Under the pieces are notes generated by a model. The model did no database searches and had not been told where the DNA came from. It saw only the letters and a list, made by a program, of their open reading frames with translations. The position numbers and the translations under genes are program-made. Shown piece by piece: positions 4,421 to 51,470 of a stretch of 64,000 nucleotides of DNA. Numbering within the stretch: position 1 is the stretch's first letter; every line of letters begins with the position of its first letter. Source of the DNA: a virus; IMG/VR virus record IMGVR_UViG_3300027969_000050, positions 64,001 to 128,000 of that record; one strand, 5' to 3'.

Positions 4421-6259
4421 CTAAGAGGGATCCTCGACGGGACTAGCCTCATCAGGCTCAAAGGTCCTTTGATTGAACAGCCCCTCGTTCTCAACGTGAG
4501 AACTTGAATCGCCTCCGCACAAAGGACAGTTCCATTGGCGATACTCCGCAGGGGGACAATTGCGACTACGACCGTGATGCATTTTCTCGTTCCAGCCGGA
4601 GGTCTTCTCATCACTGCCGCCATTAATTTTGTGGTACATCGAGTTGGCCCAAGAGCGACCAGCATCGCCACCCCAGAGAAGCCAAGCGGTCTTCCACGGA
4701 GAGTTGCCCTTCCCTCCATCATCGGGACGAGTCTTGTCATGCCGCTCAAAGAAAGAATGCATCCTCTGAATGTGATCGGAAGTAAGAGGCTTGCCATCAG
4801 CAATCGAATGAGCGCGAGTCACAGTTGCCGACTCAAGTCCGTCTCCAGCCTCCCCTTGATTGACTAGCTCAATACCACGCCGAGCATTAGATCGCGCTCC
4901 TGATGGGGCAACATAGGAAGCTCCAAATTTAAATTCATTGGCTGGCCGATAGCCTTTGCCCGACAAAAATTTTTCAATCGCCGTTGCCTCAACGGCAACA
5001 TCGCCTTGATCGCTTTCGATGTTGTGCTTGCGAAAGAACTCCAAAGGCGAATCATTGAGATCATAGCGAGAAGGCCGAAAGGACTCGGGATGTTCATCCG
5101 GGTTCATGCCAGTCATCTGCTTGATCGAATCCGCCATTTCTAAATGATAACCCTTTTCACGTCCGATGAAAATGGTCTTTGATTTGCCATCATCAAAAAT
5201 CCAGATTGGCCAATCGCCCTCCTCCGGAAAGACTTCGCTGTGATCTCCATGCACATCCTCAACGCCTGTCAGATCGACAACTTGAACGCTCAATGGCGGA
5301 ACCTCATCTTTTGCCCCTCGCTGCATACGATCATTCCAGTCCCGAGGCCAAAGGTCCTCATCATTTAGCTCGTCTTCATTCCAAGCCGATCCCGGCTCCT
5401 CAGGAAGGAGTGTGCGATCTGCAATCGGTATGGTCCCGAGGCTCCTTGGCTCGGTTCCCCTTGGCCGGTCATCAAGCGGATAAGCCCCAGCAATTTCGGT
5501 CTCTCGTTCAACAGCGTTGTTTACGTCTGGCACGGTTTGGCTTGGACCCTTGGGTTTCCTTGTTTCAACTCCATTTTGACCAAGAAGCCTTTGAATCGTG
5601 GGATAGCTGACATTAAACTCGCGTCCAATGGCCCTAAGAGACGCCCCACCTTCGTACATCTCTTTCACCTTGGCTATGGCCTCTGGAGTTTGAAGAGCGG
5701 CTGCCTCCGGAGGAATTTGAGGCCTGAGTTCATTTCCCTCATCGGTAAGAACTCTTCTAACGGTCTCCCCGGCAACTCCAAGCTCGCGTCCAATCTCCTT
5801 TACGGATTTTCCGCCCTCGTACATCTCTTGAACTTCCCTAAGCATTCCTCGAATCTTGTCAGCGTGACCTTTGGTGGGCGGTTGAATGCCACCACCAAAT
5901 TTCATACGCTCGTTCCAGCTCGATTGACGACCCGGCATATAAAACCCTTGTTCGACGCCCCAGCCATCATCGTCAAGTTGAAGCCAATCGAACCGCATAA
6001 AAAATTCTCGGTTCTCGATCTCATTGACAAATAACGTCTTGCCAGTCTGATCGGAGTACGCCTTTAGAGCAAGCATGAATTCGGAACCCAATCCGGATCC
6101 CTTTTCTAAGGCGTGAAGATTGTCAAGATGAACGCTATCCGAATCCTCACGAAGCGCGAACTCGATGTTGCCACTGCGCGTCTCCAATTGAAGCCCCGAA
6201 AATTCGCTGTTAGAAACAACGCCTCCCAATTGCTGGGCTATGAAATCTTGAACCTGCAT
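4421..6259 (-). CDS. Multidomain protein: GNAT-like, 2xHTH, copy of the polyprotein repeat domain, AWxLWGG domain, Zn finger
   Basis: Probable start MQVQDF at 6259; KGSGLGS GNAT-like motif; two EMYEGG.S...IGRE HTH repeats; DWPIWIF...IFIGREKGYHLEM; EFKFGA; TAWLLWGGDAGRSWA; CPLCG. Confidence 0.8.
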   Translation of the reverse strand: MQVQDFIAQQLGGVVSNSEFSGLQLETRSGNIEFALREDSDSVHLDNLHALEKGSGLGSEFMLALKAYSDQTGKTLFVNEIENREFFMRFDWLQLDDDGWGVEQGFYMPGRQSSWNERMKFGGGIQPPTKGHADKIRGMLREVQEMYEGGKSVKEIGRELGVAGETVRRVLTDEGNELRPQIPPEAAALQTPEAIAKVKEMYEGGASLRAIGREFNVSYPTIQRLLGQNGVETRKPKGPSQTVPDVNNAVERETEIAGAYPLDDRPRGTEPRSLGTIPIADRTLLPEEPGSAWNEDELNDEDLWPRDWNDRMQRGAKDEVPPLSVQVVDLTGVEDVHGDHSEVFPEEGDWPIWIFDDGKSKTIFIGREKGYHLEMADSIKQMTGMNPDEHPESFRPSRYDLNDSPLEFFRKHNIESDQGDVAVEATAIEKFLSGKGYRPANEFKFGASYVAPSGARSNARRGIELVNQGEAGDGLESATVTRAHSIADGKPLTSDHIQRMHSFFERHDKTRPDDGGKGNSPWKTAWLLWGGDAGRSWANSMYHKINGGSDEKTSGWNEKMHHGRSRNCPPAEYRQWNCPLCGGDSSSHVENEGLFNQRTFEPDEASPVEDPS

Positions 6260-6333
6260 ATTATTTAACCCCCAGCAAGGGGACCCAACTAAGCAAAAGA
6301 CGGGACTCCTAAAGGGGACCCAAAGGGACCCGC

Positions 6334-6645
6334 TTACATCAAGCCGAGAGTACGACCCGCCGAGAGCCAACCGTGTTCGCACACGCCATCAGCTTCAACG
6401 TAACATCCTTCAGGACAATCCGTCAAGCCCATCGTGTCTTCCAACTCATGAGGAGCATATCCGTATTCAATATCTGATTGAAGTTCCGCCGCCGCATTTG
6501 GAGAAGGTTTCTCGCCTTGGCCGGTGGTGGGCTTAGAACCGGGAGGGCTAGGAATGTGATCGGGATGAACCCAACCGGGCTGCTCACCCTGTTGAGCGAT
6601 CTTCATTTCAGCCAGCATATCTTTAGATGTCGTAAGTTTCTTCAT
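6334..6645 (-). CDS. Hypothetical protein with C-terminal Cys/His cluster
   Basis: CPEGCYVEADGVCEHG; probable start MKKLTT. Confidence 0.65.
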   Translation of the reverse strand: MKKLTTSKDMLAEMKIAQQGEQPGWVHPDHIPSPPGSKPTTGQGEKPSPNAAAELQSDIEYGYAPHELEDTMGLTDCPEGCYVEADGVCEHGWLSAGRTLGLM

Positions 6646-9232: not shown

Positions 9233-9236
9233 GCGG

Positions 9237-9261
9237 TTCCGTCCGACGACTTTGGTAGAAT
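9237..9261 (+). promoter_or_regulatory. CCGTCCGA-box promoter, copy 5
   Basis: TTCCGTCCGA-cgacttTGg-TAGAAT, then AGATACATCAACC. Confidence 0.8.
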
Positions 9262-9301
9262 AGATACATCAACCAACCACACCACAGGAGATACGATCAT
9301 T

Positions 9302-10426: not shown

Positions 10427-10467
10427 GGCAGCGGACAGGGCGGGGGGCTTCGGCTCCCCGTCCGGCG

Positions 10468-10492
10468 TTCCGTCCGACACCTCTGGTAGAAT
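10468..10492 (+). promoter_or_regulatory. CCGTCCGA-box promoter, copy 6
   Basis: TTCCGTCCGA-cacctcTGg-TAGAAT, then GGATACATCAACC; preceded by a GC hairpin at about 10441-10460. Confidence 0.8.
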
Positions 10493-10525
10493 GGATACAT
10501 CAACCGCAAGACTTTGGAGATTCTT

Positions 10526-11872: not shown

Positions 11873-11884
11873 GAGGGCTGGACA

Positions 11885-12715: not shown

Positions 12716-12740
12716 GTCCGTCCGACAGTGTTGCTATAAT
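12716..12740 (+). promoter_or_regulatory. CCGTCCGA-box promoter, copy 7
   Basis: GTCCGTCCGA-cagtgtTGc-TATAAT. Confidence 0.8.
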
Positions 12741-12774
12741 ACCCATTACAACCCAACCACAGGAGTCAATCATT

Positions 12775-13563: not shown

Positions 13564-13600
13564 CGCAGCGCCTGATCCCTCAGACCGAGCAGCAAACCAG

Positions 13601-13626
13601 CGCCCCCGAAAGGGGGCGTTTGTCGT
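13601..13626 (+). terminator. Intrinsic terminator
   Basis: CGCCCCC-GAAA-GGGGGCG followed by TTTGTCGT. Confidence 0.8.
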
Positions 13627-14376
13627 TGTGCGACGATCCGCAAGTCGCCTAGCCAGAAGATCTGACTGCGCCGTTAGGACGAATAAAAAATAATTCTCGA
13701 GCCTTGCCAAACCGCTCTGGCCCGAAAACTCAGCAAAGGCGGGCTTAAAAATTAGCCGGTCTTCTTCAGCGGCAGGAAAAAATAATTTCCAACCTGACGG
13801 ATTCGCAACTTTGCGTTAGGGGTCAGTCGTTGTCCCTGAGCCAAGGGAAGTCGAAGCGGTCGTGGAGCATCAAACCGAGACCGACGACAGTGAGACCGAC
13901 GCCAACCAAGCCGTGATGAACCCTCGCGCCGAGAACCCAAACCCGCTGGGCTTGCCGATCCCAGACAATCACTGCGACCTCTTGCGTCTAGCCCACAAGA
14001 AATAAAAATAATTTGTGTGCCGGTTCCCAGTTGTCCCAGTCGTCCCTGTCGTGCCGGTCACTCCAGTTGTTCCCGTCCCAGTCATCGAAATAAAAAATTA
14101 CGCTGCTATCGGCGCCGGACGAGGAGGAACATCAACCGAGAAACCTTTGTCTAGTTCCAACTGACGGATCCCACGCCTGTCAGCTTCCCCTACAAAGGCC
14201 GTCCAAGCCGCTTTACGAGCGCCAATCGTGAACAAGATGACAGTCCAGCCGTCCTCTTGGCTGATCCTGTGTATCTGAGTGTGTCGGTACCCACAACTAG
14301 CGAGAAAGTCTGCGGCGTCGAAGTCGGTCATCGTACTGCTTACGGGTAAGAAAAAATAAATAAGAGAGTCCCACCC

Positions 14377-17618: not shown

Positions 17619-17774
17619 GTTAAGTCCCACAAACGGAAGGCTAAACCGACCGCTCAGGCGGTCGTTTCCGTTTGTCTCTCCAAACCGCGATTTCATCACG
17701 CACCAAACCGCGAACAAAGAGCGCTGGAAGCAACGCCCAGAAAACGATCTCCGTTATCTCGTGGCCGCGAAACT

Positions 17775-20700
17775 TCACAAACCGCTTTCTTTCCAGTCGA
17801 ACACGCCTGACGTTCTTCCCAAAGCCAAATTGAGAAGTTTGTCTCGTTCGTTGATCGAAGGATCGCCAATCACCTGACCCATAAGGCTCTCAAGAATTTG
17901 TCCGATCTCTGGGCCTCGAGGAACGCCAGCCTCAATTAAATCTTGGCCGTTGATTGCCAACTGAGAAAGATCAGTCGGCTGCTGCTGCTGGCGCACTTGA
18001 TCCACAAGGCCGCGCTGAACCTCGTACTCGTTGTCATCAAACGCATCTTGCCCTTCGCCCTTCGCCGCTTGATCAGCCCAGCGCAGGTTCAGCAGATCAT
18101 CTGCGTGCGGCTCGACCCGATTTAAAAATTTTCTTGCGCCCTTCTCCGAGTCAAACGGGGCAAACATATGGTGCTTTACGAGGTCCGAAACCCGATCAGT
18201 CCTGTCCTTCGGGTACCTCAAACGGGTCATTGCGTCCCTAGTCATTTCCTCACCGACGAGTTCGTGTTGCTGACCTATTGTGCTTCCGTCAGGCAGGCGC
18301 TTCTGGTAGTAATGGTTTGTTCCTCGCTCTGGATTCACCCAAGCGGATGCGGGCTTGCCAATATCGTGGAGCAAACCGGCCAAACGGGCATCTGGGTCAT
18401 CAGTTTTCTGACTGATTCGGTCAAGCACGTCAAGCATATGCTCGCCAAGTTCTAAAGCGTGGTGCGGATTGTTCTGGTCGTAGCCGAACGTTGCATCGAC
18501 CTCAGGCAAAATATATTTAAGTACGCCGCTGTCGTGGGCCAAACGGATGGCGCCGACTGGGTCGTCCGAAGAAAAAATTTTATCCAGCTCTGCTTGCACT
18601 CTTTCGGCTGGGAGATGTTGGAGGCTTGCTGCCGCCTCAGCCATTTGGGCAATCGTTCCCTCGTCAGGGTGAAGGCCATGCCGACCCTTAGCCACAAGCG
18701 CCCTAGCAACCCTGAGCGGATCCTCGCTTAGCGACTGGTCGTGGATTGTTCTTAGTCGCCCACCTGCGATGTCCTCAGCGCCATTGTGCGGATCAATAAG
18801 TTCGCCCGTTCCTAGATTGACGGCCATCGCATTCGCTGTGAAGTCACGCCTCAAAAGATCTTCTTCAGGCGAAAGGGTGTGGTCGGCATCAACAGAAAAA
18901 TCCGTGTGCTTGTCGCCAGTTGACTGTTCGTGGCGAGGCAGCGCGATCTCGACCTCCTCACCGCCCTGCTTGTAACGAAAGACGCCAAAATCTTTTCCTG
19001 TGTAATCAATGTCTCCACCCAGTGGAGCTAAAACCGAATCAATATTTTCTTTTGGAATACCAGAGACCATGAGGTCAATGTCCTTCGGGGTCTTGCCCAT
19101 GATCGTGTCCCGGACCGCGCCTCCAACTGCGTAAACCTGCCCACCAGCAGCCATAAGCGCTTCAACAACGGGCTGAATAACAGGATTGCTTGCGACAATT
19201 TGCCTTACCGACTGTCCCACATTGTCCTCAGCGGCTCCGAAGTGAAACTCGTCTCCGCCCTGACCTCGCGCCCTTCCACGGAGGCCTCCGCCCGGTTGTA
19301 GGTCCGGCTGACCCAAGGCGCGATTGATCATTTCCACCTGATCGGGGGTTGGGTTTCCATAAAAACTGATCTTCTGATCCTCTCTTGGCGGACCCGAGGC
19401 GTGACTATTCGGGGGCCAAGTTACTCGACCACTGAGAAAGGTTCCTTCCTGAAGGGCTTTCATCCAGAAAGTGATTGCGCTGGCGCCATCCCCATTCAAA
19501 AATTTATTTCTGAATTCGGAATCCTGCGAGAGCATCTCGTAGTGATAGCCACCGGGCGGTCCAAAATAAACGGCGTTGTCCTCCGGGAGATAGAACCAAG
19601 GGGCGTCTAGTTCAGGACTCTTGTGAACTTCGTTGGGCTGGAACTTGATGTAAACGACTTTTGGAGGATTCAGTTCGTCAAATGCCCCGAAACGAAAATC
19701 TTCTTCTTGCTCATCCAGAACCTCATCCGCAGGAAAAATATTTCTTAGGGCGTCGTTGACTCCCGGAGCCGGTTCCGTCAGACCTTGATTGTCGGAGTTT
19801 GGAAACGAATCTTCCCAACTAAAATTACCTGAATTTTGCCAATACTCGCCTCTGCAAGGATCGCCCGCCGCAATCAAATTTTCTCCAACGTTCTCAGAGA
19901 GTCCCATAGGACGACCCACCCTTGGAATATCAAACTCGTTTATAAGGTCCTCGTGATACTGACCGCGAAGGCCAACGTAAAGCGCATTGGCGGAAGGCCA
20001 ATAGATAAACGGAATTCGGTTTTCGTGGTAGTCCATTCCTTTCCTATTGTGTTCTTCATTCTGAGATATGAAAACCGTGACGCCTTGCCTAGTTCTATAG
20101 GTGCCAGCGGCTCCGAAACGGAAGCCCTCATCTTCTTGAGCCGGATCAGAAAAAATATTTATTAGCGCGTCGTTGAGTCCTGCTTCTGGTTCGGTGCCTT
20201 CATCGTTGAACCACTGAAGGGAGTCGTAGCTTGGTGGAATAAAACTTCCGTCACCCGGAACGCGGCGCCAATACTCGCCGTGTGTGTCAGGCCCAAAACC
20301 GCCGCGTAAATCGAAATCGGCTTCCGTCCAAGCCCCCCGAATGTCGAATTCTTCTACAAGGTCGTCGTGATACTGGCCAAAGACGCCAACATAGAGCGCG
20401 TTATTGACAGGGCAATAAATAAATGGCGCCCTGTCCTTGTTGAAAACCCTATGTTCATCTGGATCTTGTGATATCAAAACATCGGTGCCAAACTCAGTGG
20501 CCGCCCCGAAATGAAAGTCTTCAGGGCTTTCGCTTTGCCTCAAATCATCTAGATCAGCAAGCGGATAGTCGGGCAAACCAAGCGCTTCGCAGATGGCTGG
20601 AGCCAATGCCGCCGCCTCTGGGTTATTGGGATCAACAAAGTCGGGCATCAGGCGGTCAAACCTCGTCCAAAAAGAAAATCTTGGCGCGTCCTCGAGTCCG

Positions 20701-23700
20701 GCCTCCCTAAGAGCTTTTTCAATGATCACATGATGGATGTCGGGAACCGAGCCAATCCAAATTTGTCCCTGCTCAGGCAAAACAATTAGGGAGTAGCCTC
20801 CAAGCTCATCTCCTTCCCTAGGAATAATTATTCCTTTGTTCGCACGGCCCGTGCCGACAACTCGACCATCATCATCAAGCCAAACGGGAGTTAATTCTGT
20901 CGAGGATCCAAAGTGGAATTCTGAGGCTCCTCCGCCAACAAGGCCATTCAAAGCAGTAATCATTTCCGCTTGGACGCTTTCGGGGACTCGGCTGCCATAA
21001 AACACCAAGTCATTTGGCGGCGAGAACCTTCCAAAGAAATCATAAGACCCGTACTGATTGACGACGCCTCTAGGAAGCTTATTTGTCATTTCGTTATGAA
21101 AGCCGTCTTCCCTTCCAATAGCAATGCTCCATCCATCGTGCCGCGTCGCGTCAGGGTTCATCTCGAGATAGCGCCGTTCTTCTTCGGCTGGGACGCCGAA
21201 CCGCTCTTCGATGTTTATGTCTAGGGTTCCTTCGTCCCAAGCAACAACAGGGTAAAGCTTGTCCATACCTGCACTCGGATAAGGGGTACTCTCCAAATAT
21301 TCTCCGTGGCTTGGATAATCGGGATCCGCCTTGGCGCCCCTGAGGTCAAGCAGCTCGACATGGCTTAAGATGGCTCGAGATTTTTTCTTTGCGCCCTCAT
21401 CATCTCCTTGGCCTTCTTCGCTAAGATTTTTTAATTCTGAGATGTCGGTTGGCTCTTCAGGAATGATCATTGGTCCGCCCATTGATTTGGGGCAAGGACC
21501 GGGCTTGTGATTGAAGCCGCATTCCTCACAGGCACCAAATTTTAAATCCTCTTCGTCAAGCTCAACACGCACTTGTTCGCTCTTACGACGGAACTTATCA
21601 AGCACCTTTTGGATGCGCGAAGTTGACTTTTTTCCTCCAGAGAGAAAATCGGAGTTCCGGATACCACTTTCATTTTCATTTTCGAACGAATTCACCCAGT
21701 TTCTAAGGATATTTGCGAAGATCGGGGCGTCAAGTTCATCATCTTTGGCAAATGCGTTTGCCTGACTATCGGCAGGTTGGGCAGGTTGCGTATCAGAGAA
21801 GGAAAAGTCAGGATCCCCAAGGAAATGATCAACAATTCCCTCGCCTCCTTGCGGATCAAACGCCTCCCAGCCTGTTCCAAAGGGCTTGTTGTCTGCTCCG
21901 AACTTAAAATCTTCTTGCTCCCACTGCTGGCTAATGTCAAGATTGTCGATAAAGGCCTTGATATTAGAGGGGATCGGCTGTTCATCATAAGGCGGGCGCA
22001 TCCAATCAACCGGACCAAATTGACTTTTCCTTCCTTCCCACGCAGCTCCGTCGATTGCGCCCAAAGTCAAATGCGAGTCCCAAGTGGTTCCAACTTGAAC
22101 CGTGTTGCTTTTTGGCCAATAAATAATCGGACAGTCGCCTCGAGGATCGGGCGCACCGCCGCCGGTTGATTCAAAGACGACCTTTGGCTCCTCTGAAGCG
22201 CCAAATTTAAAATCTTTGGGCGTTCCAAAGAACTCATCAAGCTTTGCTTCGCAAGCAGCCTTCTCTGATTCGGATAAATTTTCCAGACCAGACCCCCACA
22301 GTTCGCCATCGTATCGGCACTGAGCAACAAAAGTAAGATCTTTGTTTACATCCACCGCTCTGTTAGGAATGTCTGAGTGGTAGGCCCCTTCAGCTCCGAT
22401 ATACATATTGATTAGGCTTGCTGGCGCCCATTCGGAACTTTGGTCCAACAAGGCATAAATATAAACTGGGTGGGACACGCCACCACCCTCATCATCATGT
22501 TCAGATCCGTAGTCGGATTCCTTGATTAGATCGATGACATTGATCTCTGGTTGCTCTGCCGCTCCAAACTTAAACCCGGGAGTGGTACCCAAAAATTCAT
22601 CCAGACTATTTTGAATGTCTTCACGAAGCATGGGATCACCATCAGCAATAAAATCGCGTCCATGAGGATAACGCAGAAGAGGCAAAGTTGAGATATCCAC
22701 CCCATCAATCTCTGCTCGTTTTGCGACCTCACGGAATTTCGGATCCCCCATAATTTCTTCGTGATAGCCATTTGGCCTACCGACGAAAACTTCGTATTTT
22801 ATATCGCCCTCCCAAGGATGTCCTACCGGAACAATTATTATTGGCCAATCGGTTCCACCGGTATCGATTCTTTCGTTGTGGTCTCCGTGAAGGTCACGGA
22901 CTCCAGTCAGGTCAACCACCTCAACAAAATTAGGAAGCGAGCCGCCTTCGTCTTCTAAGACCGAACCGAACTTAAACCCGGGATCCGTACCCAAAAACTC
23001 GTCCAGATCCTTTTGGATGTTTTCCGGGACGTATTGGCGTCCAGACGGGTAGCGACTGTAGCCGACCTCTTCGTACCACTTCCGTGAAAAGACATCAGAA
23101 CCGGACATGCGTTTTTCGAACTCGGGATCCTCTTCTATTTCAGTATGGAAGCCGTTTTCTCTGCCAACAAAGACGGTCCAGCGATTTCCTACTGGAACAA
23201 TAATTATTGGCCAGTCAAAGGATCTAGGTTGCTTGCTTGGTTCGTCCCCGACTTCAGAAATAAAAGCGTCGTGGCCACCGAAGCGATCATCCATTTCGGT
23301 TAGGTCGATGATCTCGACATCCTCATTAGAACCGAATTTAAAATCGTCTTGAACTCCGAGGGCCGACTTTACCGCTGAATCAAATTCGACTGTCCATCCA
23401 TCGGGGTACCCCCGGCCAGCGGAGCCATACTCATGCTCGCTGCCCAAAAGCATCCACTGGGTAATTGCATCGTTTACACGAAATAAAGCAACTTGATCAC
23501 CGTAAAAACGATCAACATACCTTGCTCCTCCGGGAGAGGCGATGCCACGCGCAGTAAGTACCGTCATCACATCTTCATGGAAATCATCATAACTTCCAAT
23601 AAAAGCCCTTGTCTCCGTCGGGCCTAAGATTGCTATTCCGGGTCGATCTCCGGTTCCATGCGAACCGTTAAGATTTGCGTCGTTGGCGTCTGAGGTATCA

Positions 23701-24248
23701 AGGATTTCTACTGAGACTGGGACGGTCTCGATCTGTGAGCGCAACCTGCCATCAGAACCAAATTTAAAATCTTCTTGTGCGGGACCCATTACTGGCGCCA
23801 CTCGCTGTAATTCTGACTTGACTGCTGATTCAAATTCGGGAGGTGGACGTGGAATTTCCACAGTGTCCGTCCAATCACTGGAATTGTTCCCGTACCAATC
23901 CTCAATAGTTCCATCAGGATAAACCCGGAAACAAACAACCGGGCCAAGATCGGAAGAGAAAGCGCGAAAGTCTCCCGGCTGTTGGGTCAGAATTCCCTGA
24001 GCTTCCAATATGGCAATTAAGTCATAATGAAATGCTTGATATTCGCCAATGAAAACCTTTATCTCCGTCGGGGCAAAGATCGCTACTCCGGGGCGGTCTC
24101 CGGTGTCGTGCGTTTGCCACGAGTCATAATGCCTTGACTCTGAGGTGTCGAGAACCTCAACTGAAATTGGAAGCGAGTAATTCAGAACCCGCGTCACACC
24201 GTCAATGTTGGTCCAGCCGTCATTGTCAAATTCGGTTAGGTCGTCCAC
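17775..24248 (-). CDS. 2157-aa polyprotein-like protein: 12 F-x-F-G-delimited modules and a C-terminal CCA-adding enzyme with HD domain
   Basis: C-terminal ~487 aa has class II NTase motifs VGGAVRD..DID, RRDFTANAMA, EDPLR and ERVQAE, plus HD motif LLHDIGK; 12 [FL][KHR]FG[AS] motifs upstream. Confidence 0.9.
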   Translation of the reverse strand: MDDLTEFDNDGWTNIDGVTRVLNYSLPISVEVLDTSESRHYDSWQTHDTGDRPGVAIFAPTEIKVFIGEYQAFHYDLIAILEAQGILTQQPGDFRAFSSDLGPVVCFRVYPDGTIEDWYGNNSSDWTDTVEIPRPPPEFESAVKSELQRVAPVMGPAQEDFKFGSDGRLRSQIETVPVSVEILDTSDANDANLNGSHGTGDRPGIAILGPTETRAFIGSYDDFHEDVMTVLTARGIASPGGARYVDRFYGDQVALFRVNDAITQWMLLGSEHEYGSAGRGYPDGWTVEFDSAVKSALGVQDDFKFGSNEDVEIIDLTEMDDRFGGHDAFISEVGDEPSKQPRSFDWPIIIVPVGNRWTVFVGRENGFHTEIEEDPEFEKRMSGSDVFSRKWYEEVGYSRYPSGRQYVPENIQKDLDEFLGTDPGFKFGSVLEDEGGSLPNFVEVVDLTGVRDLHGDHNERIDTGGTDWPIIIVPVGHPWEGDIKYEVFVGRPNGYHEEIMGDPKFREVAKRAEIDGVDISTLPLLRYPHGRDFIADGDPMLREDIQNSLDEFLGTTPGFKFGAAEQPEINVIDLIKESDYGSEHDDEGGGVSHPVYIYALLDQSSEWAPASLINMYIGAEGAYHSDIPNRAVDVNKDLTFVAQCRYDGELWGSGLENLSESEKAACEAKLDEFFGTPKDFKFGASEEPKVVFESTGGGAPDPRGDCPIIYWPKSNTVQVGTTWDSHLTLGAIDGAAWEGRKSQFGPVDWMRPPYDEQPIPSNIKAFIDNLDISQQWEQEDFKFGADNKPFGTGWEAFDPQGGEGIVDHFLGDPDFSFSDTQPAQPADSQANAFAKDDELDAPIFANILRNWVNSFENENESGIRNSDFLSGGKKSTSRIQKVLDKFRRKSEQVRVELDEEDLKFGACEECGFNHKPGPCPKSMGGPMIIPEEPTDISELKNLSEEGQGDDEGAKKKSRAILSHVELLDLRGAKADPDYPSHGEYLESTPYPSAGMDKLYPVVAWDEGTLDINIEERFGVPAEEERRYLEMNPDATRHDGWSIAIGREDGFHNEMTNKLPRGVVNQYGSYDFFGRFSPPNDLVFYGSRVPESVQAEMITALNGLVGGGASEFHFGSSTELTPVWLDDDGRVVGTGRANKGIIIPREGDELGGYSLIVLPEQGQIWIGSVPDIHHVIIEKALREAGLEDAPRFSFWTRFDRLMPDFVDPNNPEAAALAPAICEALGLPDYPLADLDDLRQSESPEDFHFGAATEFGTDVLISQDPDEHRVFNKDRAPFIYCPVNNALYVGVFGQYHDDLVEEFDIRGAWTEADFDLRGGFGPDTHGEYWRRVPGDGSFIPPSYDSLQWFNDEGTEPEAGLNDALINIFSDPAQEDEGFRFGAAGTYRTRQGVTVFISQNEEHNRKGMDYHENRIPFIYWPSANALYVGLRGQYHEDLINEFDIPRVGRPMGLSENVGENLIAAGDPCRGEYWQNSGNFSWEDSFPNSDNQGLTEPAPGVNDALRNIFPADEVLDEQEEDFRFGAFDELNPPKVVYIKFQPNEVHKSPELDAPWFYLPEDNAVYFGPPGGYHYEMLSQDSEFRNKFLNGDGASAITFWMKALQEGTFLSGRVTWPPNSHASGPPREDQKISFYGNPTPDQVEMINRALGQPDLQPGGGLRGRARGQGGDEFHFGAAEDNVGQSVRQIVASNPVIQPVVEALMAAGGQVYAVGGAVRDTIMGKTPKDIDLMVSGIPKENIDSVLAPLGGDIDYTGKDFGVFRYKQGGEEVEIALPRHEQSTGDKHTDFSVDADHTLSPEEDLLRRDFTANAMAVNLGTGELIDPHNGAEDIAGGRLRTIHDQSLSEDPLRVARALVAKGRHGLHPDEGTIAQMAEAAASLQHLPAERVQAELDKIFSSDDPVGAIRLAHDSGVLKYILPEVDATFGYDQNNPHHALELGEHMLDVLDRISQKTDDPDARLAGLLHDIGKPASAWVNPERGTNHYYQKRLPDGSTIGQQHELVGEEMTRDAMTRLRYPKDRTDRVSDLVKHHMFAPFDSEKGARKFLNRVEPHADDLLNLRWADQAAKGEGQDAFDDNEYEVQRGLVDQVRQQQQPTDLSQLAINGQDLIEAGVPRGPEIGQILESLMGQVIGDPSINERDKLLNLALGRTSGVFDWKESGL

Positions 24249-24722: not shown

Positions 24723-26174
24723 CTAGCGCGGCCCCATAAACGGATCGCTGATGTCTGGTCTAGGGGCAAGCTGACTGGACGGCAAAATGCACTCTACGAA
24801 GTGAGGCTGAAGCTCGCCTGACTGATGAAGCGGGAAGTGAACAGTCACCCAGTCTAGGGTGGGGTCGTAAGAAAAAACTTTTCCAACCGAGTTAGGGCCA
24901 ACCAGAACCATCTCGCCGGTACCGTTCCCCGGCGCCCCACCAACAGCAGCGCCATACTCGCCATTCCAATTCTGAGCATCTCGTGGCGGAAGGAGCTGAA
25001 CGACATCCTCCTGATTAAATATTTTTTCTCCCGCCGCAGTCCGAACATGCGTGTAGGTTTTTCCAAGAACCCTTGACAAGGCACCCGGCATATGAATATT
25101 TCGCCCGCCAGTTTGGTCATCGGCCTTGGGTTGAGAGAACGGAAGCTCTAGTTGTTCTCCGGGCTGTCCGGGCTGATCTGGGATAACGTCAAACTGGTCG
25201 CTAGGGTTAGCCATAGGATTAGTGCTTTGTCCCTGACCGCGACTTGGAGACGGCTTGGGAACCTGAGCAGGCTGGCCCGTAAGCTGCTCTGGAGCGCCAT
25301 TAGGCTTGCCAGAGGGGGCGGAAGGGGCAGACGGGGCGGAAGGTCCTGCGGGACCCATAGAAGGTCCAGTGGGCGAGGTAGGAGCCGAGGGGGCGCCCGG
25401 AGCAGCGCCACCCGACCCTCCGCCATCGATCTCTTCCTTATCAACGCCCTTCGGAACACCACCGCCTGTTCCGACCTCATTTGTTGGGCCGCCTCCACCG
25501 GGAGCCTGACCGACGCCCTTATCGAACAACTGACCCTGCTGTACAGGCTGGGTTTTCTTCATTCCACGAGGCATCTGACCGTGGATATTGGGGTCGTAAT
25601 CGTCAATTGGCGTAGCCATTGCCTGCCACATAGTTGCGATAACGTGAGAGCAAGAGCGGCCTTCTAGATACTTCCACTTACGGGTACGTTGAAATGCGTA
25701 CTGATCCCAAGGACACTCGCAAGTCCACTGAGTAATCGCCATTGAGTTTGGGTCGTCACGACTGATCGTACACTCGTACTCGCCGTGATCGCCAGTGACA
25801 TTTGAGACGACGACATTCCAGCCATTCCGGAGGATCGTCACCTGACCATTATTTTTTAGACGGACGGCTTTGGCTTTGACGTCATCCCAAGTTGCCGTTC
25901 TAGAATTATCGAAAAGGGTGAAATGCGCCCTGCGATAACCAAATGGCTTTAGATCCTCGTAAACGATCTGCTCAGCAAGATGGCGATCATCATGGGATCC
26001 GCCCTCAGACATAATTACTGCCTGCCCTGCCGGACCTTCCCACCAGCTAACCCTAGTTGAGCCAAGGGTTTGGAACTTAGGCGGCAGGTCTTTTGGCTGA
26101 GAACCTATTGCTAGGCCGACATAATCTTCGAACCAAGTCTTTTCTTCTTGGGCGGTAAGGACGCTCCAAGACAT
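24723..26174 (-). CDS. SWIM-type Zn-finger protein with Pro/Gly-rich linker
   Basis: WTCECPW.QY..QR....LEGRSCSH. Confidence 0.7.
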   Translation of the reverse strand: MSWSVLTAQEEKTWFEDYVGLAIGSQPKDLPPKFQTLGSTRVSWWEGPAGQAVIMSEGGSHDDRHLAEQIVYEDLKPFGYRRAHFTLFDNSRTATWDDVKAKAVRLKNNGQVTILRNGWNVVVSNVTGDHGEYECTISRDDPNSMAITQWTCECPWDQYAFQRTRKWKYLEGRSCSHVIATMWQAMATPIDDYDPNIHGQMPRGMKKTQPVQQGQLFDKGVGQAPGGGGPTNEVGTGGGVPKGVDKEEIDGGGSGGAAPGAPSAPTSPTGPSMGPAGPSAPSAPSAPSGKPNGAPEQLTGQPAQVPKPSPSRGQGQSTNPMANPSDQFDVIPDQPGQPGEQLELPFSQPKADDQTGGRNIHMPGALSRVLGKTYTHVRTAAGEKIFNQEDVVQLLPPRDAQNWNGEYGAAVGGAPGNGTGEMVLVGPNSVGKVFSYDPTLDWVTVHFPLHQSGELQPHFVECILPSSQLAPRPDISDPFMGPR

Positions 26175-27733: not shown

Positions 27734-28484
27734 CAGTCTTTACGTCCTTGATTAGCCCTGAATAGTTGGTCTTGGCGATGTATTCGCCAGTAGACTCGCT
27801 GATCTGATCTAGCAGGCCTCGATTGGCCAGCATCTTGTAGACAAGATTGGACGGAGCGAAGTCGCCCTTGCCTGCTCTCTGGTCAATCCGACGGCGCTTA
27901 TGGATCTGGTGCCAAAAGGTCTTGGCCTTGTAAGGCTCGTAACGCAGTAGGCGCTCCATTTTGTCAGCCTGCTCTAGCGCGTAGGTGTAAGCGGAGTTAT
28001 AAATTACCTCTGGATCCCTAGCCATTTCGCGGTCAGGAGGATTAACCCACTCGTCATTGAGAATCTCGTAGCCCGAACGCAGCCCCTTCTTATAGAGATC
28101 GGTTGGCAAAACGCCCTCTGGCACAATAAATACCTGAAGGGGATGAGTGGTCATCGGAAGAATGCTTCCGTCCAACTGCTCAACTGCGATGCCAATCATC
28201 TCGGCCCTTGACCACTCAGGAAAAATTTCTGAGTTGACGAACAAGGAGATGTCAAAATCGCTGTCTTCCGAGTACTGGTAGGTCGTGAGGCTGCCAGTGA
28301 CGTAAAGGCTGCCCCAGTTCTGGACATCGTAGCCATGCTCGTTAAACCTGTCAAAGACAAGCTTCTCAACCCACGTTTTATGCTCAAATTTCAGCGTTGG
28401 CTTGACGGATACCGACCCGTCCCAGACCGTAGGGTCTAGCGTTTCATTGATCGGATCGAGAATATTAGACTTCTTAGGCTTCAT
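27723..28484 (-). CDS. Pol-beta family nucleotidyltransferase
   Basis: VTGSL..YQY...SDFDI (GS...DxD) and C-terminal GDF...NLVYK.L. Confidence 0.8.
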   Translation of the reverse strand: MKPKKSNILDPINETLDPTVWDGSVSVKPTLKFEHKTWVEKLVFDRFNEHGYDVQNWGSLYVTGSLTTYQYSEDSDFDISLFVNSEIFPEWSRAEMIGIAVEQLDGSILPMTTHPLQVFIVPEGVLPTDLYKKGLRSGYEILNDEWVNPPDREMARDPEVIYNSAYTYALEQADKMERLLRYEPYKAKTFWHQIHKRRRIDQRAGKGDFAPSNLVYKMLANRGLLDQISESTGEYIAKTNYSGLIKDVKTDAR

Positions 28485-30477
28485 AGCGTCCGTCCCTCAG
28501 ATCAACGCGATCCTCCACGATCTCCTTGGCGTCCTCGACAATAAAAATTTTAAGCACGGATGACCTCGAGTCCCTCCTCCAAGTAAAAGCCCCTTGATCA
28601 AGGCCAATCAGGTTTAGCTCACCGAGTCCCTCGAGCGTCCGGCGGACTAATTTTTTATTTTTTGAGACAACCTTGAACATGTCTGGAGTTGGAACTTCTC
28701 CTTGCTTTGCCACCTTGAGGGCGTTGCCAACAGCAAAAACCTCGCATCCAGCGGTCAATAAGGCCGAAGTTACGGCCTCTACGTCAGAATTGCTCAAAGA
28801 CCCAATGAAAACAAGGCTGCCTGTGTTTGCAAGCTTCGTCGTTCCGCCATTAATATTTTGCAGCTCCACTGAGTTGACCTTCAGCTCAGGATGCTGGTAA
28901 TACCAGAGGCGAATCAGGTGACGCACTGTGTAGGGGATCGTCGTCGTAGATTTAATTAGGAGCTTTTTAGAGTCGTAAACGCCTTGAACCGTGTTCTCAT
29001 AGCCAGAATCTACCGAGAGATCAGCAACCTGCATGCCCGGATCCCCAACAACAATCGAGTCATCCTCAACGTCGTAAATAAAAGGAATGGGCAGGGCGAC
29101 TGGGTCTACCGCCGACATAAAAGTGATTTCGCCCACTCCTTGAGGCTGTCTCGGGGTGAAATGCGGATTAAAAGTAGCGTCTGGATCAGTGTTAGGGAAG
29201 TGATCGTTCATGACTAGCGTGTCGGATTCGGCCTCGCGGTGCTTAATGAACTCGTGCCACGATGGAAGGAGCTGCTCGCATTCAGGACATTGATAGAGGC
29301 CATTAATTCTTTTTGGGTCCGAAAGTCCAATGGACCCATTTTGCTGTCCGGCGATTGCGCTTTCCTCTGCTGCGGTGTCGTTGAAGAACTGGCCGTCATC
29401 ATTGGCCGGATTTGGGTTTGAAAAGTTGTGTTCTTCCAAATCCTCGATGCGCTTTACAACGTTGTCATTGCCAGCCAGAACAAACTTCAAATTGTTGTCA
29501 TCGGCGTATTCGTTCAGTGCGGACAGAAGCTTAACCCCAAAAATTTTATTTGGGAGCTGGATGTCATCTCCTTCAACCTTGAGAGTCCCAACCGTCATTT
29601 GCCCCGAAAGACGGGTCGCAATCTTGGACCAGTCCTGCTTATGCGAGATTAGGCACTCGTCTCCTTGCTGAACAAAATAAAGATAAGAAGTCTTTGAGGC
29701 CACTTCATGGCCCTCCATGTTGGAAAGGCCGCTCCAAGAAAGACCAACGGAGTTGCAGTACTGCTTCAGGACATCCGAGAGCGCATTGAGGCCAATATTT
29801 GTTTCGACCTCCCATGATGCATTGTCATCCGGGTCAATTTTTAGCGTCCCAACTGCAATTGGCCCCGAAGTTTCGGGGTTTACTAGGCTTTCGAGCGGTT
29901 TGTCATCGACGATGAGCTGCCCATCCGCATAAGAAAAATTTAATTTCTTCGGTTCACGCATGTCGTGGTCCATGTACGACCGATCAATGTGATCTCGATT
30001 GTCCTGAGCCTGAGGTTCCTCAGCAGGAAGGGCGTCACCGGCATAATCCATTGAGACGCGAGCAAAGTGATTGAGGTTCTTGAAAATATTTTCTGCTCGA
30101 TCAGCGAAACGCTCACTCCTCTCGGTGGCCTTTGGACGAACAACATCTAGTCCTCGGTAAAGGGGGTGCGACATGGACTTGTAGATGATGTACTTGTACC
30201 GGTCGCAGGTCAGGTCAATTACATATTTTTTGTCGGACGAGACCCAGACGTAGTGGCCATTGTCCTCGCCAATAAAGCCGCCAAGACGGCGCGTAAGCCA
30301 GAATGAGGTGACGTAGCACTGGCCTTTAGAGGCGTCCTGATCTCCACTGAACTCGGGGTGGCGGGTGTCGTCGTTCCACGCTTTTTCTGCGGCAGACTTA
30401 AGGGCGTGTAACTCGCCCTGAGAAATTGACTTAGGATCGAAGGTCAAAACGGCATCTCCGAATTGGGATCTTCCCAA
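28474..30477 (-). CDS. Multidomain protein: papain-like (YunG-like) N-terminus, C2H2-like finger, degenerate repeat domain, degenerate CCA-NTase head
   Basis: KGQCYVTS...GG...GHYV...IDLT; CPEC...H; PIPFIYD...IVVG; ALLTAGCEVFAVG. Confidence 0.7.
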   Translation of the reverse strand: MGRSQFGDAVLTFDPKSISQGELHALKSAAEKAWNDDTRHPEFSGDQDASKGQCYVTSFWLTRRLGGFIGEDNGHYVWVSSDKKYVIDLTCDRYKYIIYKSMSHPLYRGLDVVRPKATERSERFADRAENIFKNLNHFARVSMDYAGDALPAEEPQAQDNRDHIDRSYMDHDMREPKKLNFSYADGQLIVDDKPLESLVNPETSGPIAVGTLKIDPDDNASWEVETNIGLNALSDVLKQYCNSVGLSWSGLSNMEGHEVASKTSYLYFVQQGDECLISHKQDWSKIATRLSGQMTVGTLKVEGDDIQLPNKIFGVKLLSALNEYADDNNLKFVLAGNDNVVKRIEDLEEHNFSNPNPANDDGQFFNDTAAEESAIAGQQNGSIGLSDPKRINGLYQCPECEQLLPSWHEFIKHREAESDTLVMNDHFPNTDPDATFNPHFTPRQPQGVGEITFMSAVDPVALPIPFIYDVEDDSIVVGDPGMQVADLSVDSGYENTVQGVYDSKKLLIKSTTTIPYTVRHLIRLWYYQHPELKVNSVELQNINGGTTKLANTGSLVFIGSLSNSDVEAVTSALLTAGCEVFAVGNALKVAKQGEVPTPDMFKVVSKNKKLVRRTLEGLGELNLIGLDQGAFTWRRDSRSSVLKIFIVEDAKEIVEDRVDLRDGRYEA

Positions 30478-50448: not shown

Positions 50449-50520
50449 TGGGGGCGGAAGGACTCGAACCTTCAACCTTCGGCTTAAAAGGCCGCTGCTC
50501 TACCATTGAGCTACGCCCCC
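50449..50520 (-). tRNA. tRNA-Lys(UUU), no encoded CCA
   Basis: GGGGGCGTAGCTCAATGGTAGAGC...CTTTTAA...GGTTCGAGTCC...CGCCCCCA followed by TTTT. Confidence 0.95.
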
Positions 50521-50885
50521 CTTGGAACCGTGACTGCGACCATCGTCTATTCCGGGCAAGCCCTAGTGACTGGTCCACATCGACCTATGCGACGAATATC
50601 ACACTTGGCACTCCCGTCACAGACGGGTTGATCGATGCTTGGCTCCCACAGGACTTACGGCACGGCCCGCCTTGCGATAACCTTTAATAAGACGGTACAG
50701 AACTGCATTCCAACAGTTCCCCGAATGGCCTAAAAGTGTTATCTAACTAGACCTGTTTGCCGGATAACCGTCCGGTCGGCTCTATAGACCTGATCTCATG
50801 CAGACTCCTTGCTTTGCTGTGAATTGGACTTAACTCTTTACTCGCTAAAGTTACGCGAACAACCCATTGACGTAACTTTAACTGC
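50521..50885 (-). ncRNA. Candidate large structured non-coding RNA
   Basis: No credible ORF on the transcribed strand; many complementary stems; lies between two tRNAs. Confidence 0.55.
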
Positions 50886-51316
50886 TAGTACGGGGAGTGG
50901 GACTCGAACCCACACTGAAAGGATTTTAAGTCCTCGTCCTCTGCCAATTGGGATATCCCCGCCTCGACTTCTCTGTGGCAATTAGCGCATAGAAGAACAC
51001 AATTCTCTATTTCTTCCAAACCCTTTTCAAGGGTAAGAAGCGAAATGCCCCTCTTGCTTGTTTTCAGATCTGGGTTCAAATGATGAAACTCAAGAGCGCC
51101 AATATACGAATCATATCCGCACGCAACGCACTTTCCCCCAGCCGACTCAACCAATGCCTTTTTTCTTTCTCTTGCATAGTCTGAGGTTGTTTTGATATAA
51201 GGTTTTTTCTCTTTTCGGTATTTGGCTATCTTTGCTGCGTTTCTACATTTAGTAGAACAGAACTTTCTTTTGGGGCTAATGACTTCGTTTGAGCAATTAT
51301 GCTTATGGCATGTCAT
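50885..51316 (-). CDS. HNH endonuclease (homing type)
   Basis: FCS.KC N-terminal finger; GGKCVACGY...ALEFHH...LLCANCHRE; AT-rich. Confidence 0.88.
   Translation of the reverse strand: MTCHKHNCSNEVISPKRKFCSTKCRNAAKIAKYRKEKKPYIKTTSDYARERKKALVESAGGKCVACGYDSYIGALEFHHLNPDLKTSKRGISLLTLEKGLEEIENCVLLCANCHREVEAGISQLAEDEDLKSFQCGFESHSPY
50889..50962 (-). tRNA. tRNA-Leu(UAA), short variable loop, no encoded CCA
   Basis: GCGGGGATATCCCAATTGGCAGAGGA...CTTAAAA...GGTTCGAGTCCCACTCCCCGTA followed by CTA. Confidence 0.9.
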
Positions 51317-51347
51317 ACTGATTACCGAACGGTAAACACAACTTTAA

Positions 51348-51374
51348 CGTGTATACCGATTCCACCACCCGAGC
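51348..51374 (-). pseudogene. 5' fragment of a tRNA-Leu-like gene
   Basis: GCTCGGGTGGTGGAATCGGTATACACG (acceptor 5' strand and D arm) with no 3' half. Confidence 0.6.
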
Positions 51375-51397
51375 GGGTGAGCCTACAGTATAACAAA

Positions 51398-51470
51398 CTC
51401 CCCGACTAGGACTCGAACCTAGGACCTAACGATTAACAGTCGTTCGCTCTGCCAACTGAGCTATCGGGGA
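51398..51470 (-). tRNA. tRNA-Asn(GUU), no encoded CCA
   Basis: TCCCCGATAGCTCAGTTGGCAGAGC...CTGTTAA...GGTTCGAGTCCTAGTCGGGGAG followed by TTT. Confidence 0.95.

What the first reader, a model, noticed from the sequence alone, without database searches (positions are those of the whole stretch)
17775..24248. Polyprotein of 12 F-x-F-G-delimited modules ending in a CCA-adding/HD tRNA-repair enzyme
Seen: [FL]-[KHR]-F-G-[AS], preceded by D/E/G, occurs 12 times, at about 23757, 23331, 22965, 22563, 22200, 21897, 21534, 20907, 20505, 20112, 19686 and 19236. It divides the N-terminal ~1670 aa into units of 101-209 aa. The last motif sits at the start of an intact class II CCA-adding enzyme. Codons of the motif differ between copies, so conservation is at the protein level while the modules have diverged. 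Inference: the motif is a protease site (G|A/S) or a capsid-targeting signal, and the ORF is a virion-packaged cassette of separately released effectors. It resembles the phage 'polyvalent protein' theme but has explicit delimiters. I do not recognise this architecture as described.
Basis: partly seen in the sequence, partly recalled or inferred. Interest (0 to 1): 0.92.

Follow-up and report, generated by a model that had tools for sequence, protein, structure and literature searches.

The report
Phage repeat-domain array fused to CCA enzyme
A 2157-residue protein of an uncultured freshwater phage strings together eleven diverged copies of one undescribed ~130-residue domain, each ending in the same short F-x-F-G tail, ahead of a tRNA CCA-adding/repair enzyme; the tail marks a whole family of giant phage proteins, but nothing yet shows that it is a cutting site.

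Summary
The ORF at window 17775-24248 (minus strand) carries 12 copies of [FL][KHR]FG[AS] at the stated places; shuffles expect 0.02. An intact class II CCA-adding/HD enzyme follows the last copy.

The modules are not different effectors. Eleven of the twelve are paralogues of one domain that matches nothing in Pfam, PHROGs, NCBIfam, PDB sequences or the fold libraries.

A profile search found this domain in 118 protein clusters. Most are giant metagenomic phage proteins of 1000-4900 aa with up to 14 copies. There it ends in the general tail [DE][DE]-[WF]-[HKNR]-F-[GAS]-[AS].

- AlphaFold puts the tail in a low-confidence linker, not a buried strand.
- A phage about 93% identical in DNA lacks exactly modules 2, 4 and 6.
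- Complete genes stop right after the tail's Gly.
- The tail is kept on C-terminal modules with nothing behind them.
- The tail is absent from the capsid and scaffold-protease proteins, and no dedicated protease was found.
- 99 of 116 sampled relatives of the CCA enzyme are fused to a different N-terminal partner with no such motif.

Best reading (0.5): a module-intrinsic recognition tail in an uncleaved, cassette-like array. A processed polyprotein stays open (0.3). Other readers of this scan flagged this same stretch, but the scan has no note of it on other DNA.

The parts
17775..24248 (-). Whole gene, 2157 aa (P0001): array of repeat modules followed by a CCA-adding/HD enzyme
   Evidence: orthologues P0004-P0007
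23757..24248 (-). Module 1 (aa 1-164), a copy of the repeat domain, ends EDFKFG|S
   Evidence: domain E 9e-28
23331..23756 (-). Module 2 (aa 165-306), a copy of the repeat domain. It is absent from the phage that is about 93% identical in DNA.
   Evidence: joint skips 426 nt
22965..23330 (-). Module 3 (aa 307-428), a copy of the repeat domain
22563..22964 (-). Module 4 (aa 429-562), a copy of the repeat domain. This is the copy modelled by AlphaFold2. It is absent from the near-identical phage.
22200..22562 (-). Module 5 (aa 563-683), a copy of the repeat domain
21897..22199 (-). Module 6 (aa 684-784), a short copy of the repeat domain. It is absent from the near-identical phage and has an orthologue in P0008.
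   Evidence: joint skips 303 nt
21534..21896 (-). Module 7 (aa 785-905). This is not the repeat domain. It is a distinct module conserved at 55-95% identity in all close homologues, and it ends EEDLKFG|A.
   Evidence: (domain E 2.3, no real match)
20907..21533 (-). Module 8 (aa 906-1114): a Cys-rich CxxC...C segment and an acidic linker, then a copy of the repeat domain
20505..20906 (-). Module 9 (aa 1115-1248), a copy of the repeat domain
20112..20504 (-). Module 10 (aa 1249-1379), a copy of the repeat domain
19686..20111 (-). Module 11 (aa 1380-1521), a copy of the repeat domain. In the near-identical phage its core is replaced by a 937-nt cassette of foreign domains.
19236..19685 (-). Module 12 (aa 1522-1671), a copy of the repeat domain, ends DEFHFG|A directly before the enzyme
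17775..19235 (-). CCA-adding/repair enzyme (aa 1672-2157): PolyA_pol head 1705-1833, RNA-binding neck 1858-1919, HD 1935-2031, tRNA_NucTran2_2 2082-2141, then the C-terminal tail FDWKESGL
4421..6382 (-). Second protein with the domain (P0002, 653 aa). One copy at about aa 357-489 ends NEFKFG|AS. It also has two HTH domains and three W-N-[DE]-[KR]-M-x-x-G junction motifs.
28474..30477 (-). 667-aa protein, the homologue of the usual N-terminal fusion partner of this CCA-enzyme clade. It has a degenerate repeat-like strand pair and a remnant of the nucleotidyltransferase head.
17719..17738 (-). Terminator-like hairpin just after the stop codon
   Evidence: pattern match only
50449..51470 (-). Three phage tRNA genes (Lys-UUU, Leu-UAA, Asn-GUU), none with an encoded 3' CCA; these are likely substrates of the enzyme

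Best explanation
**What it is.** The gene encodes one long beads-on-a-string protein. It has eleven diverged paralogous copies of an undescribed ~110-140-aa alpha/beta domain. The domain's hallmarks are a first strand VxVxD, then P-x-I-[IY]-x-P, then [VI]-G-x5-H-x-[DE], then a terminal helix. One unrelated conserved module and a Cys-rich segment are also present. The array is fused to a class II CCA-adding enzyme with an HD phosphohydrolase domain.

**The motif.** [DE]-F-[KHR]-F-G-[AS] is the domain's own C-terminal tail: an acidic-aromatic short linear motif in the flexible linker after the last helix. Across the family it reads [DE][DE]-[WF]-[HKNR]-F-[GAS]-[AS].

**How it most likely works (inferred).** The tail is a recognition or docking peptide read by a common partner that is still unknown. 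It also defines the register in which whole modules are gained, lost and swapped by recombination. The array is therefore a fast-evolving set of binding modules of the polyvalent, host-takeover or counter-defence kind. The enzyme end adds or repairs the 3' CCA of the phage's three CCA-less tRNAs and of damaged host tRNAs.

**Shown:** the anatomy, the homology between modules, the family-wide tail, its linker position in the model, the module-exact indels, and the enzyme domains and motifs.

**Inferred:** that the protein stays uncleaved, that the tail binds something, and the counter-defence role.
For: - **Modules are homologous.** They align with each other, with invariant Gly and His. A profile finds 11 copies here, one in P0002, and a weak one in a ParB-like nuclease protein of the same genome.
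- **The domain is widespread in giant phage proteins.** A profile search of 1.84 billion representatives gave 118 hits. Most are 1000-4900 aa with up to 14 matched stretches.
- **The tail follows the domain in distant copies.** Of 162 confident internal domain ends, 101 carry [FWY][KRHNQ]F[GAS]. 246 instances in the distant proteins give the wider consensus.
- **The tail is kept where nothing follows.** 7 of 16 C-terminal modules have the strict form, and most of the rest end in acidic-aromatic variants.
- **Structure model.** The AlphaFold2 model of module 4 with both flanks has mean pLDDT 74.5. The core is folded, and both flanking motifs have pLDDT at or below about 52.
- **The motif travels with the domain, not with the enzyme.** 99 of 116 sampled long relatives of the CCA enzyme have no repeat domain and no motif. 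Their N-terminal ~640 aa match the separate 667-aa protein of this phage. P0137 has that partner, then two repeat domains with tails, then the enzyme.
- **Module-exact indels.**
- **Enzyme.** Pfam PF01743, PF12627, PF01966 and PF13735, and PHROG 2244 at 5e-75. The motifs GGAVRD, DID, RRD, EDPLR and HD are readable.
- **Substrates.** The three phage tRNAs lack an encoded CCA.
Against: - No partner for the tail is known.
- A small Gly then Ala/Ser pair in an exposed linker is what many protease sites look like.
- Two complete genes stop exactly after the Gly (P0122, P0110), and several others stop 1-3 residues later. This resembles capped ubiquitin-like precursors.
- The linker position rests on one model of moderate confidence built from 36 sequences. 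The two-module model failed.
- The modules are more acidic (pI 4.1-5.1) than the proteome median of 5.3. But 39% of the long ORFs have pI below 5, so acidity says little.
- The function of the domain itself is unknown.
Confidence: 0.5

Rival explanations
1. This is the first reader's idea: a processed polyprotein. F-x-F-G|[AS] is an endoprotease site. The giant ORF is cut into about twelve ~130-aa proteins plus a free CCA-adding enzyme, either in the infected cell or in the capsid.
For: - The motif sits in a predicted flexible linker.
- The residues on both sides of the proposed cut are small.
- Natural stops fall exactly at the Gly (P0122, P0110) or 1-6 residues after it in about ten more proteins.
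- Neighbouring genes begin where a module begins, for example P0043 after P0012.
- The last motif lies just ahead of the enzyme.
- Related M-x-x-G junction motifs lie between the dissimilar domains of P0002.
- Individual module types are conserved between phages, as if each had its own job.
Against: - No protease domain was found in the five other giant family members scanned, nor in the precomputed Pfam listed for those.
- The strict and the relaxed motif are absent from the capsid, scaffold-protease and portal proteins, so the motif is not the prohead protease's general site.
- The tail persists on C-terminal modules with nothing to release.
- Most relatives of the enzyme are fused with no delimiter.
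- Foreign cassettes lie inside a module without delimiters of their own.
- In distant copies the Gly is Ala or Ser in 43% of cases, and the next residue is often Lys or Asn.
- Ala after the Gly rules out self-cleavage by a Ser, Thr or Cys nucleophile at that position (established chemistry of N-to-O/S acyl shift autoproteolysis).
Confidence: 0.3
2. Packaging or ejection signal. The repeated tail tethers the protein to the scaffold, portal or capsid interior, so that the array and the enzyme are loaded into the head and injected with the DNA, as with phage P1 Dar proteins and other polyvalent proteins.
For: - The gene ends an operon on the same strand as the terminase and portal genes.
- The upstream 483-aa neighbour resembles part of Bixzunavirus gp84, which lies beside the head protease gene in that phage.
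- The domain also accompanies a ParB-like nuclease. DdrB-like ParB domains occur in head-packaged polyvalent proteins (PMC5512222 read).
Against: - In other phages the arrays lie among small genes, ligase, helicase and Ku genes, not structural genes.
- Non-structural genes are interleaved after the portal gene here and in Bixzunavirus.
- There are no virion data.
- Twelve copies of a targeting signal have no known precedent (my own knowledge).
Confidence: 0.1
3. Purely structural element. The tail is a strand or clasp that packs on the same or the next module and stiffens the array. It has no outside partner and is not cut.
For: The tail is tied to the domain across the family. The aromatic residues could fill a hydrophobic groove (inference).
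Against: Both flanking tails are of low confidence and lack secondary structure in the single-module model. The tail is kept at free C-termini where no next module exists. The flanks are rich in Pro, Gly, Asp and Glu, as linkers are.
Confidence: 0.1

Closest known systems
Polyvalent proteins of phages and conjugative elements (Iyer et al. 2017, PMC5512222)
   Same: Both are very large multi-module proteins of a mobile element. Both combine an enzyme with many other modules and evolve by domain shuffling. Companion proteins here carry ParB-like nuclease, HTH, GNAT-like and HNH domains.
   Different: Here eleven modules are copies of one unknown domain rather than disparate effectors. None of the hub domains named in that paper (zincin-like MPTase, assemblin-like peptidase and others) was detected. 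A conserved linker tail is not part of that description as far as I read it.
Bacterial-type class II CCA-adding enzyme with HD domain (E. coli Cca type) and phage tRNA nucleotidyltransferases (PHROG 2244)
   Same: The C-terminal 486 aa have all four Pfam domains and the readable catalytic motifs. 481 phage records hold a relative.
   Different: It is fused behind a 1670-aa array. It scores 195 bits against a cut-off of 439 for the closest NCBIfam equivalog. Identity to enzymes of sequenced phages is about 30%.
Polyubiquitin and other head-to-tail precursors (nematode polyprotein allergens, multi-domain protease-inhibitor precursors such as LEKTI); recalled from my own knowledge
   Same: Both are tandem copies of one small domain that each end in a conserved Gly-containing tail. 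Some proteins end exactly at the Gly or carry a 1-3-residue cap. The last copy is fused to an unrelated protein.
   Different: The modelled topology (three strands, two helices, a strand, two helices) is not a beta-grasp, and no fold match was found. The copies are only 20-50% identical to each other. No processing enzyme is known.
FxFG repeats of nucleoporins; recalled from my own knowledge
   Same: The four-letter motif F-x-F-G, repeated many times.
   Different: Nucleoporin repeats lie in long disordered, low-complexity stretches. Here each motif follows a folded ~130-aa domain, is preceded by acidic residues, and reads W-x-F-G in most relatives. The likeness is of letters only.

Membership tests
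Class II CCA-adding enzyme (tRNA nucleotidyltransferase) with HD domain | Pol-beta-type head domain with the G-G-x-V-R-D and D-x-D motifs | tested here: met
   PF01743 at aa 1705-1833, E 1e-23, 84 bits against a cut-off of 23. GGAVRD and DID are readable.
Class II CCA-adding enzyme (tRNA nucleotidyltransferase) with HD domain | Nucleotide-selecting motifs R-R-D and E-D-x-x-R, and the RNA-binding neck | tested here: met
   RRDFTANAMA and EDPLRVAR are readable. PF12627 at aa 1858-1919, E 6e-14.
Class II CCA-adding enzyme (tRNA nucleotidyltransferase) with HD domain | HD phosphohydrolase domain | tested here: met
   PF01966 at E 5e-8; TIGR00277 HDIG at 31.3 bits against a cut-off of 27.6. LLHDIGK is readable.
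Class II CCA-adding enzyme (tRNA nucleotidyltransferase) with HD domain | Reaches a curated equivalog score | tested here: not met
   The best is TIGR02692 at 195.5 bits against a cut-off of 438.8. It is a divergent member, and its specificity (CCA, CC, A or poly-A) is not settled by sequence.
Class II CCA-adding enzyme (tRNA nucleotidyltransferase) with HD domain | Adds CCA to tRNA in an assay | not testable with these tools
   This needs an enzyme assay. The three phage tRNAs lack an encoded CCA.
Polyvalent proteins (Iyer et al. 2017) | 2-15 disparate conflict-related domains in one polypeptide of a phage or plasmid | tested here: inconclusive
   There is one recognisable enzyme, eleven copies of one unknown domain and one further unknown module. 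Relatives carry YunG-like, GNAT, HNH and ParB-like domains.
Polyvalent proteins (Iyer et al. 2017) | Embedded peptidase or another hub domain; delivery with the DNA | tested here: inconclusive
   Pfam detected no peptidase or hub domain in this protein or in nine relatives. Delivery is not testable here.
Virus or phage polyprotein processed at conserved sites | A conserved short site in exposed inter-domain linkers | tested here: met
   There are 12 sites here. The consensus holds over 246 distant instances. pLDDT is low at both flanking motifs.
Virus or phage polyprotein processed at conserved sites | A cognate protease encoded by the element, with the same site in its other substrates | tested here: not met
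   The only protease found is the prohead protease-scaffold fusion at genome 23612-26137. The motif occurs in no other protein of the genome.
Virus or phage polyprotein processed at conserved sites | Cleavage products observed | not testable with these tools
   This needs proteomics or expression.
Polyubiquitin-like precursor | Beta-grasp fold of the repeated unit | tested here: inconclusive
   The order of secondary-structure elements in the model differs from a beta-grasp. No match reached Foldseek E 0.001 or Z above 3.2. The model is only of moderate confidence.
FG-nucleoporin-type repeats | Motifs embedded in long disordered low-complexity sequence | tested here: not met
   The motifs are 101-209 aa apart and separated by a folded domain.

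The most novel reading that the evidence does not exclude
The [WF]-x-F-G tail is a processing signal used by a still unknown protease or by another chain-breaking step. A whole clade of large freshwater phages would then encode dozens of diverged ~130-aa proteins as giant polyproteins of up to 4900 aa. This would be a polyprotein strategy in tailed dsDNA phages, with explicit delimiters and cassette-like module exchange, and here it would also release a tRNA-repair enzyme.
Probability: 0.25. Interest if true: 0.85.

Novelty: new variant of a known kind. Interest (0 to 1): 0.62.

Why it matters
Giant, unannotated proteins are a large part of the dark matter of big phage genomes. This work defines a repeat domain that no library recognises. 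Together with its conserved linker tail, it accounts for much of more than a hundred such proteins.

The arrays evolve by adding and dropping whole modules in register. That pattern fits an arms-race function.

The tail is a short, mutable handle for experiments such as pull-downs, cleavage assays and tail mutants.

The link to a CCA-adding/HD enzyme, which in this phage clade is nearly always fused to something, points at tRNA 3'-end maintenance as a contested step of infection. If the tail proves to be a processing site, it would be a new way for tailed phages to express many small proteins.

Tried and rejected
- **Two-module AlphaFold2 model** (A5, 12 rows): mean pLDDT 42.5, unusable. A first staircase alignment of overlapping pairs (A4) was discarded.
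- **Fold searches** of the single-module model: Foldseek against PDB, nothing at E 0.001 or better. VIA-align wide, best Z 3.2. BFVD, nothing. The fold is unassigned, not shown to be new.
- **Profile against PDB sequences:** best E 0.037, judged chance.
- **ESM Atlas:** best score 0.83 with low recognition, no lead.
- **DNA and tblastn searches** of the array against 50,697 phage records: no match.
- **Word-indexed search for stand-alone forms** of 57-373 aa: none. The exhaustive search shows that short forms are rare (P0122, P0083).
- **No RNA holder** is listed for the stretch.
- **Literature searches** found the polyvalent-protein paper and nothing on this domain or motif.
- **Ideas considered and dropped:**
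  - Self-cleavage by a nucleophile after the Gly, because Ala is there in half of the copies.
  - Nucleoporin-like FG function, because the context is wrong.
  - The prohead protease site, because the motif is absent from head proteins.
  - Acidity as a sign of nucleic-acid mimicry, because the whole proteome is rather acidic.

Full report
**1.

Window 17775-24248 (minus strand) is a single open frame of 2157 codons. 2000 shuffles of the protein gave a mean count of 0.02.

The motifs cut the first 1671 residues into units of 101-209 aa. Codon usage differs between the copies, so the conservation is at the protein level.

The remaining 486 residues are a complete bacterial-type CCA-adding enzyme:
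- PolyA_pol head, RNA-binding neck, HD domain and C-terminal tRNA_NucTran2_2 domain.
- PHROG 2244 'tRNA nucleotidyltransferase' at E 5e-75.
- The motifs GGAVRD, DID, RRD, EDPLR and HD are readable in the translation.
- It stays well below the curated equivalog cut-offs of NCBIfam, so it is a divergent member.

**2. The modules are copies of one domain**

Aligned to each other, the units share these features:
- a first strand VxVxD
- P-x-I-[IY]-x-P
- [VI]-G-x5-H-x-[DE], with invariant Gly and His
- a terminal helix
- the motif

A profile built from them finds 11 copies in this protein. Module 7, residues 785-905, is a different module, conserved in all close homologues.

The same profile finds one copy in a second protein of the window, P0002 at 4421-6382. 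It also finds a weaker copy in a ParB-like nuclease protein elsewhere in the genome, at 52008-53516, where the tail reads A-K-F-G.

The copies are 17-50% identical to module 4, the alignment's reference copy. Individual types have orthologues at 35-48% identity in a distant phage: modules 6, 8 and 9 in P0008. The duplications are therefore old, and each type has been kept.

No Pfam, PHROG or NCBIfam model matches the array. Neither does any PDB sequence or any of 50,697 sequenced phages.

**3. Where it comes from**

The window is part of a 140-kb IMG/VR virus record found in freshwater metagenomes.

The portal protein (41% identity) and the major capsid protein (53%) tie it distantly to Bixzunavirus, the cluster C mycobacteriophages.

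The gene ends a run of genes on the same strand as the terminase and portal genes. The order 354 aa, 667 aa, 253 aa, 518 aa, 483 aa and then the giant gene recurs in two related contigs.

**4. The domain and its tail define a family of giant phage proteins**

An exhaustive profile search of 1.84 billion representatives gave 118 hits, 46 of them below 1e-10. Most are 1000-4900 aa with up to 14 matched stretches. They lie in phage-like contexts, next to Ku, DNA ligase, helicase and many small genes. They have almost no Pfam domains: DUF7701, HNH and GNAT, and no peptidase.

In these distant proteins the domain ends in the same kind of tail. Of 162 confident internal domain ends, 101 carry [FWY][KRHNQ]F[GAS]. 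The 246 instances give this consensus:
- acidic residues at the two positions before the motif
- Trp 76% at the first position
- His, Lys, Asn or Arg next
- Phe
- Gly 56%, Ala 22%, Ser 21%
- then Ala or Ser 47%
- flanks rich in Pro, Gly, Asp and Glu

The motif is retained, in a wider form.

**5. Position of the tail**

An AlphaFold2 model of module 4 with both flanking motifs (36-row alignment) has mean pLDDT 74.5 and pTM 0.69. Its core runs strand, strand, strand, helix, helix, strand, helix, helix. Both motifs lie outside the core with pLDDT at or below about 52. On this evidence the tail is linker, not a buried strand.

The fold found no relative in PDB or BFVD; the best Z was 3.2. A two-module model failed, so contacts between modules remain untested.

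**6. Cassette-like evolution**

The close homologues P0004-P0007 and the more distant P0008 have 4 to 9 motifs.

A 105-kb contig from another freshwater study is about 93% identical in DNA across the gene. Relative to this window:
- it lacks exactly module 2 (426 nt)
- it lacks module 6 (303 nt)
- it lacks module 4 (435 nt skipped, 30 nt put in)
- the core of module 11 is replaced by 937 nt that encode a YunG-like domain and a further unknown domain, while the module's first strand, last helix and tail remain

The same foreign cassette lies between the last tail and the enzyme in P0007. Modules are thus exchanged in register, but foreign domains do not bring delimiters of their own.

**7. Evidence bearing on cleavage**

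For cleavage:
- The position is exposed.
- The residues at the boundary are small.
- Two complete genes inside their contigs stop exactly after the Gly: P0122, a 115-aa single-domain protein ending FKFG, and P0110, ending WNFG. About ten more stop 1-10 residues later.
- Neighbouring genes begin where a module begins.
- P0002 has three W-N-[DE]-[KR]-M-x-x-G motifs between dissimilar domains.

Against cleavage:
- The motif, strict or relaxed, occurs in no other protein of the genome. That includes the prohead protease-scaffold fusion and the capsid protein.
- No other protease was found.
- C-terminal modules keep the tail or an acidic-aromatic variant of it although nothing follows. The tail therefore does something for the module itself.
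- The CCA enzyme does not seem to need release. At least 297 clusters of this enzyme clade are 850-1700-aa fusions. Of the 116 examined, 99 have neither the domain nor the motif.
- In those fusions the N-terminal ~640 aa are homologous to the separate 667-aa protein of this phage. P0137 shows the intermediate form: that partner, two repeat domains with tails, then the enzyme.
- In one contig the array (4516 aa) and the enzyme are separate adjacent genes. The enzyme keeps one repeat-like copy and a G-W-K-F-V tail.

**8. Reading**

The best-supported account is that the F-x-F-G motif is the repeat domain's own acidic-aromatic linker tail. It would be a recognition or docking peptide on each module of an expandable array. 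The array would work as one chain together with a tRNA 3'-end maturation and repair enzyme. The phage's three tRNA genes lack an encoded CCA. I put this at 0.5.

A processed polyprotein remains a serious rival at 0.3. A packaging signal and a purely structural clasp get about 0.1 each.

What the domain binds or does is unknown. Its acidity is only a little beyond that of the phage's proteome.

**9. Comparison and novelty**

The nearest described concept is the polyvalent protein of phages and plasmids (PMC5512222). This case differs in three ways: it is dominated by one amplified unknown domain, it lacks the known hub and peptidase domains, and it has an explicit linker tail. Phage CCA-adding enzymes as such are common.

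I rate it a new variant of a known kind, built around a domain family that the libraries at hand do not hold. Other first-stage notes on this same stretch saw the repeat and the CCA-less tRNAs. I checked both and they hold. The scan has no note of the motif on other DNA.

Noticed in passing
window 4421-6382 (-): P0002 (653 aa) has three copies of W-N-[DE]-[KR]-M-x-x-G at the junctions between an N-terminal domain, two HTH domains, the repeat domain and a C-terminal Cys-rich tail. The tail resembles a segment that follows a motif in P0008 (R-x-x-C-P-P...R-Q-W-N). This may be a second class of junction motif.
   Followed up: partly
window 28474-30477 (-): The 667-aa protein is the homologue of the N-terminal ~640 aa of more than 100 clusters of ~1070-aa CCA-enzyme fusions. 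It ends in what looks like a degenerate remnant of the nucleotidyltransferase head. This suggests a past gene fission, after which the working enzyme became joined to the repeat array.
   Followed up: partly
window 17775-17800 (-), the C-terminus of the protein: The last residues, F-D-W-K-E-S-G-L, are shared with P0004 and with P0005, which has lost the whole CCA domain but keeps this tail directly after its last module. In P0006 and P0007 a P-F-D-W-S peptide sits before the enzyme instead. This is a second conserved acidic-aromatic tail of unknown use.
   Followed up: partly
window 19760-20056, and the contig of run X4: A near-identical domain cassette (a YunG-like domain plus an unknown domain) is nested inside module 11 in P0004 and sits before the enzyme in P0007. 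A related YunG-like domain ends the ParB-like nuclease protein of this genome (genome 52008-53516, outside the window).
   Followed up: partly
window 8001-14000: G+C is 0.60-0.63, against about 0.50 in the rest of the window. The stretch covers a block of plus-strand genes that includes an HNH endonuclease at 10514-11872 (PHROG 1314).
   Followed up: no
window 50449-51470 (-): The three tRNA genes (Lys-UUU, Leu-UAA, Asn-GUU) are the only ones in the 140-kb record, and none has an encoded CCA end.
   Followed up: yes
window 24723-26174 (-): Residues 84-199 of the 483-aa upstream neighbour match part of Bixzunavirus gp84, a 1278-aa protein annotated 'endolysin, LysM-like' that lies next to the head protease gene. 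They also match PHROGs 30974 and 2940, both of unknown function.
   Followed up: partly
genome 21746-26137, outside the window: The major capsid protein (53% identical to that of Bixzunavirus) and an 842-aa prohead protease fused to a long low-complexity scaffold-like tail lie about 60 kb from the portal and terminase genes.
   Followed up: partly
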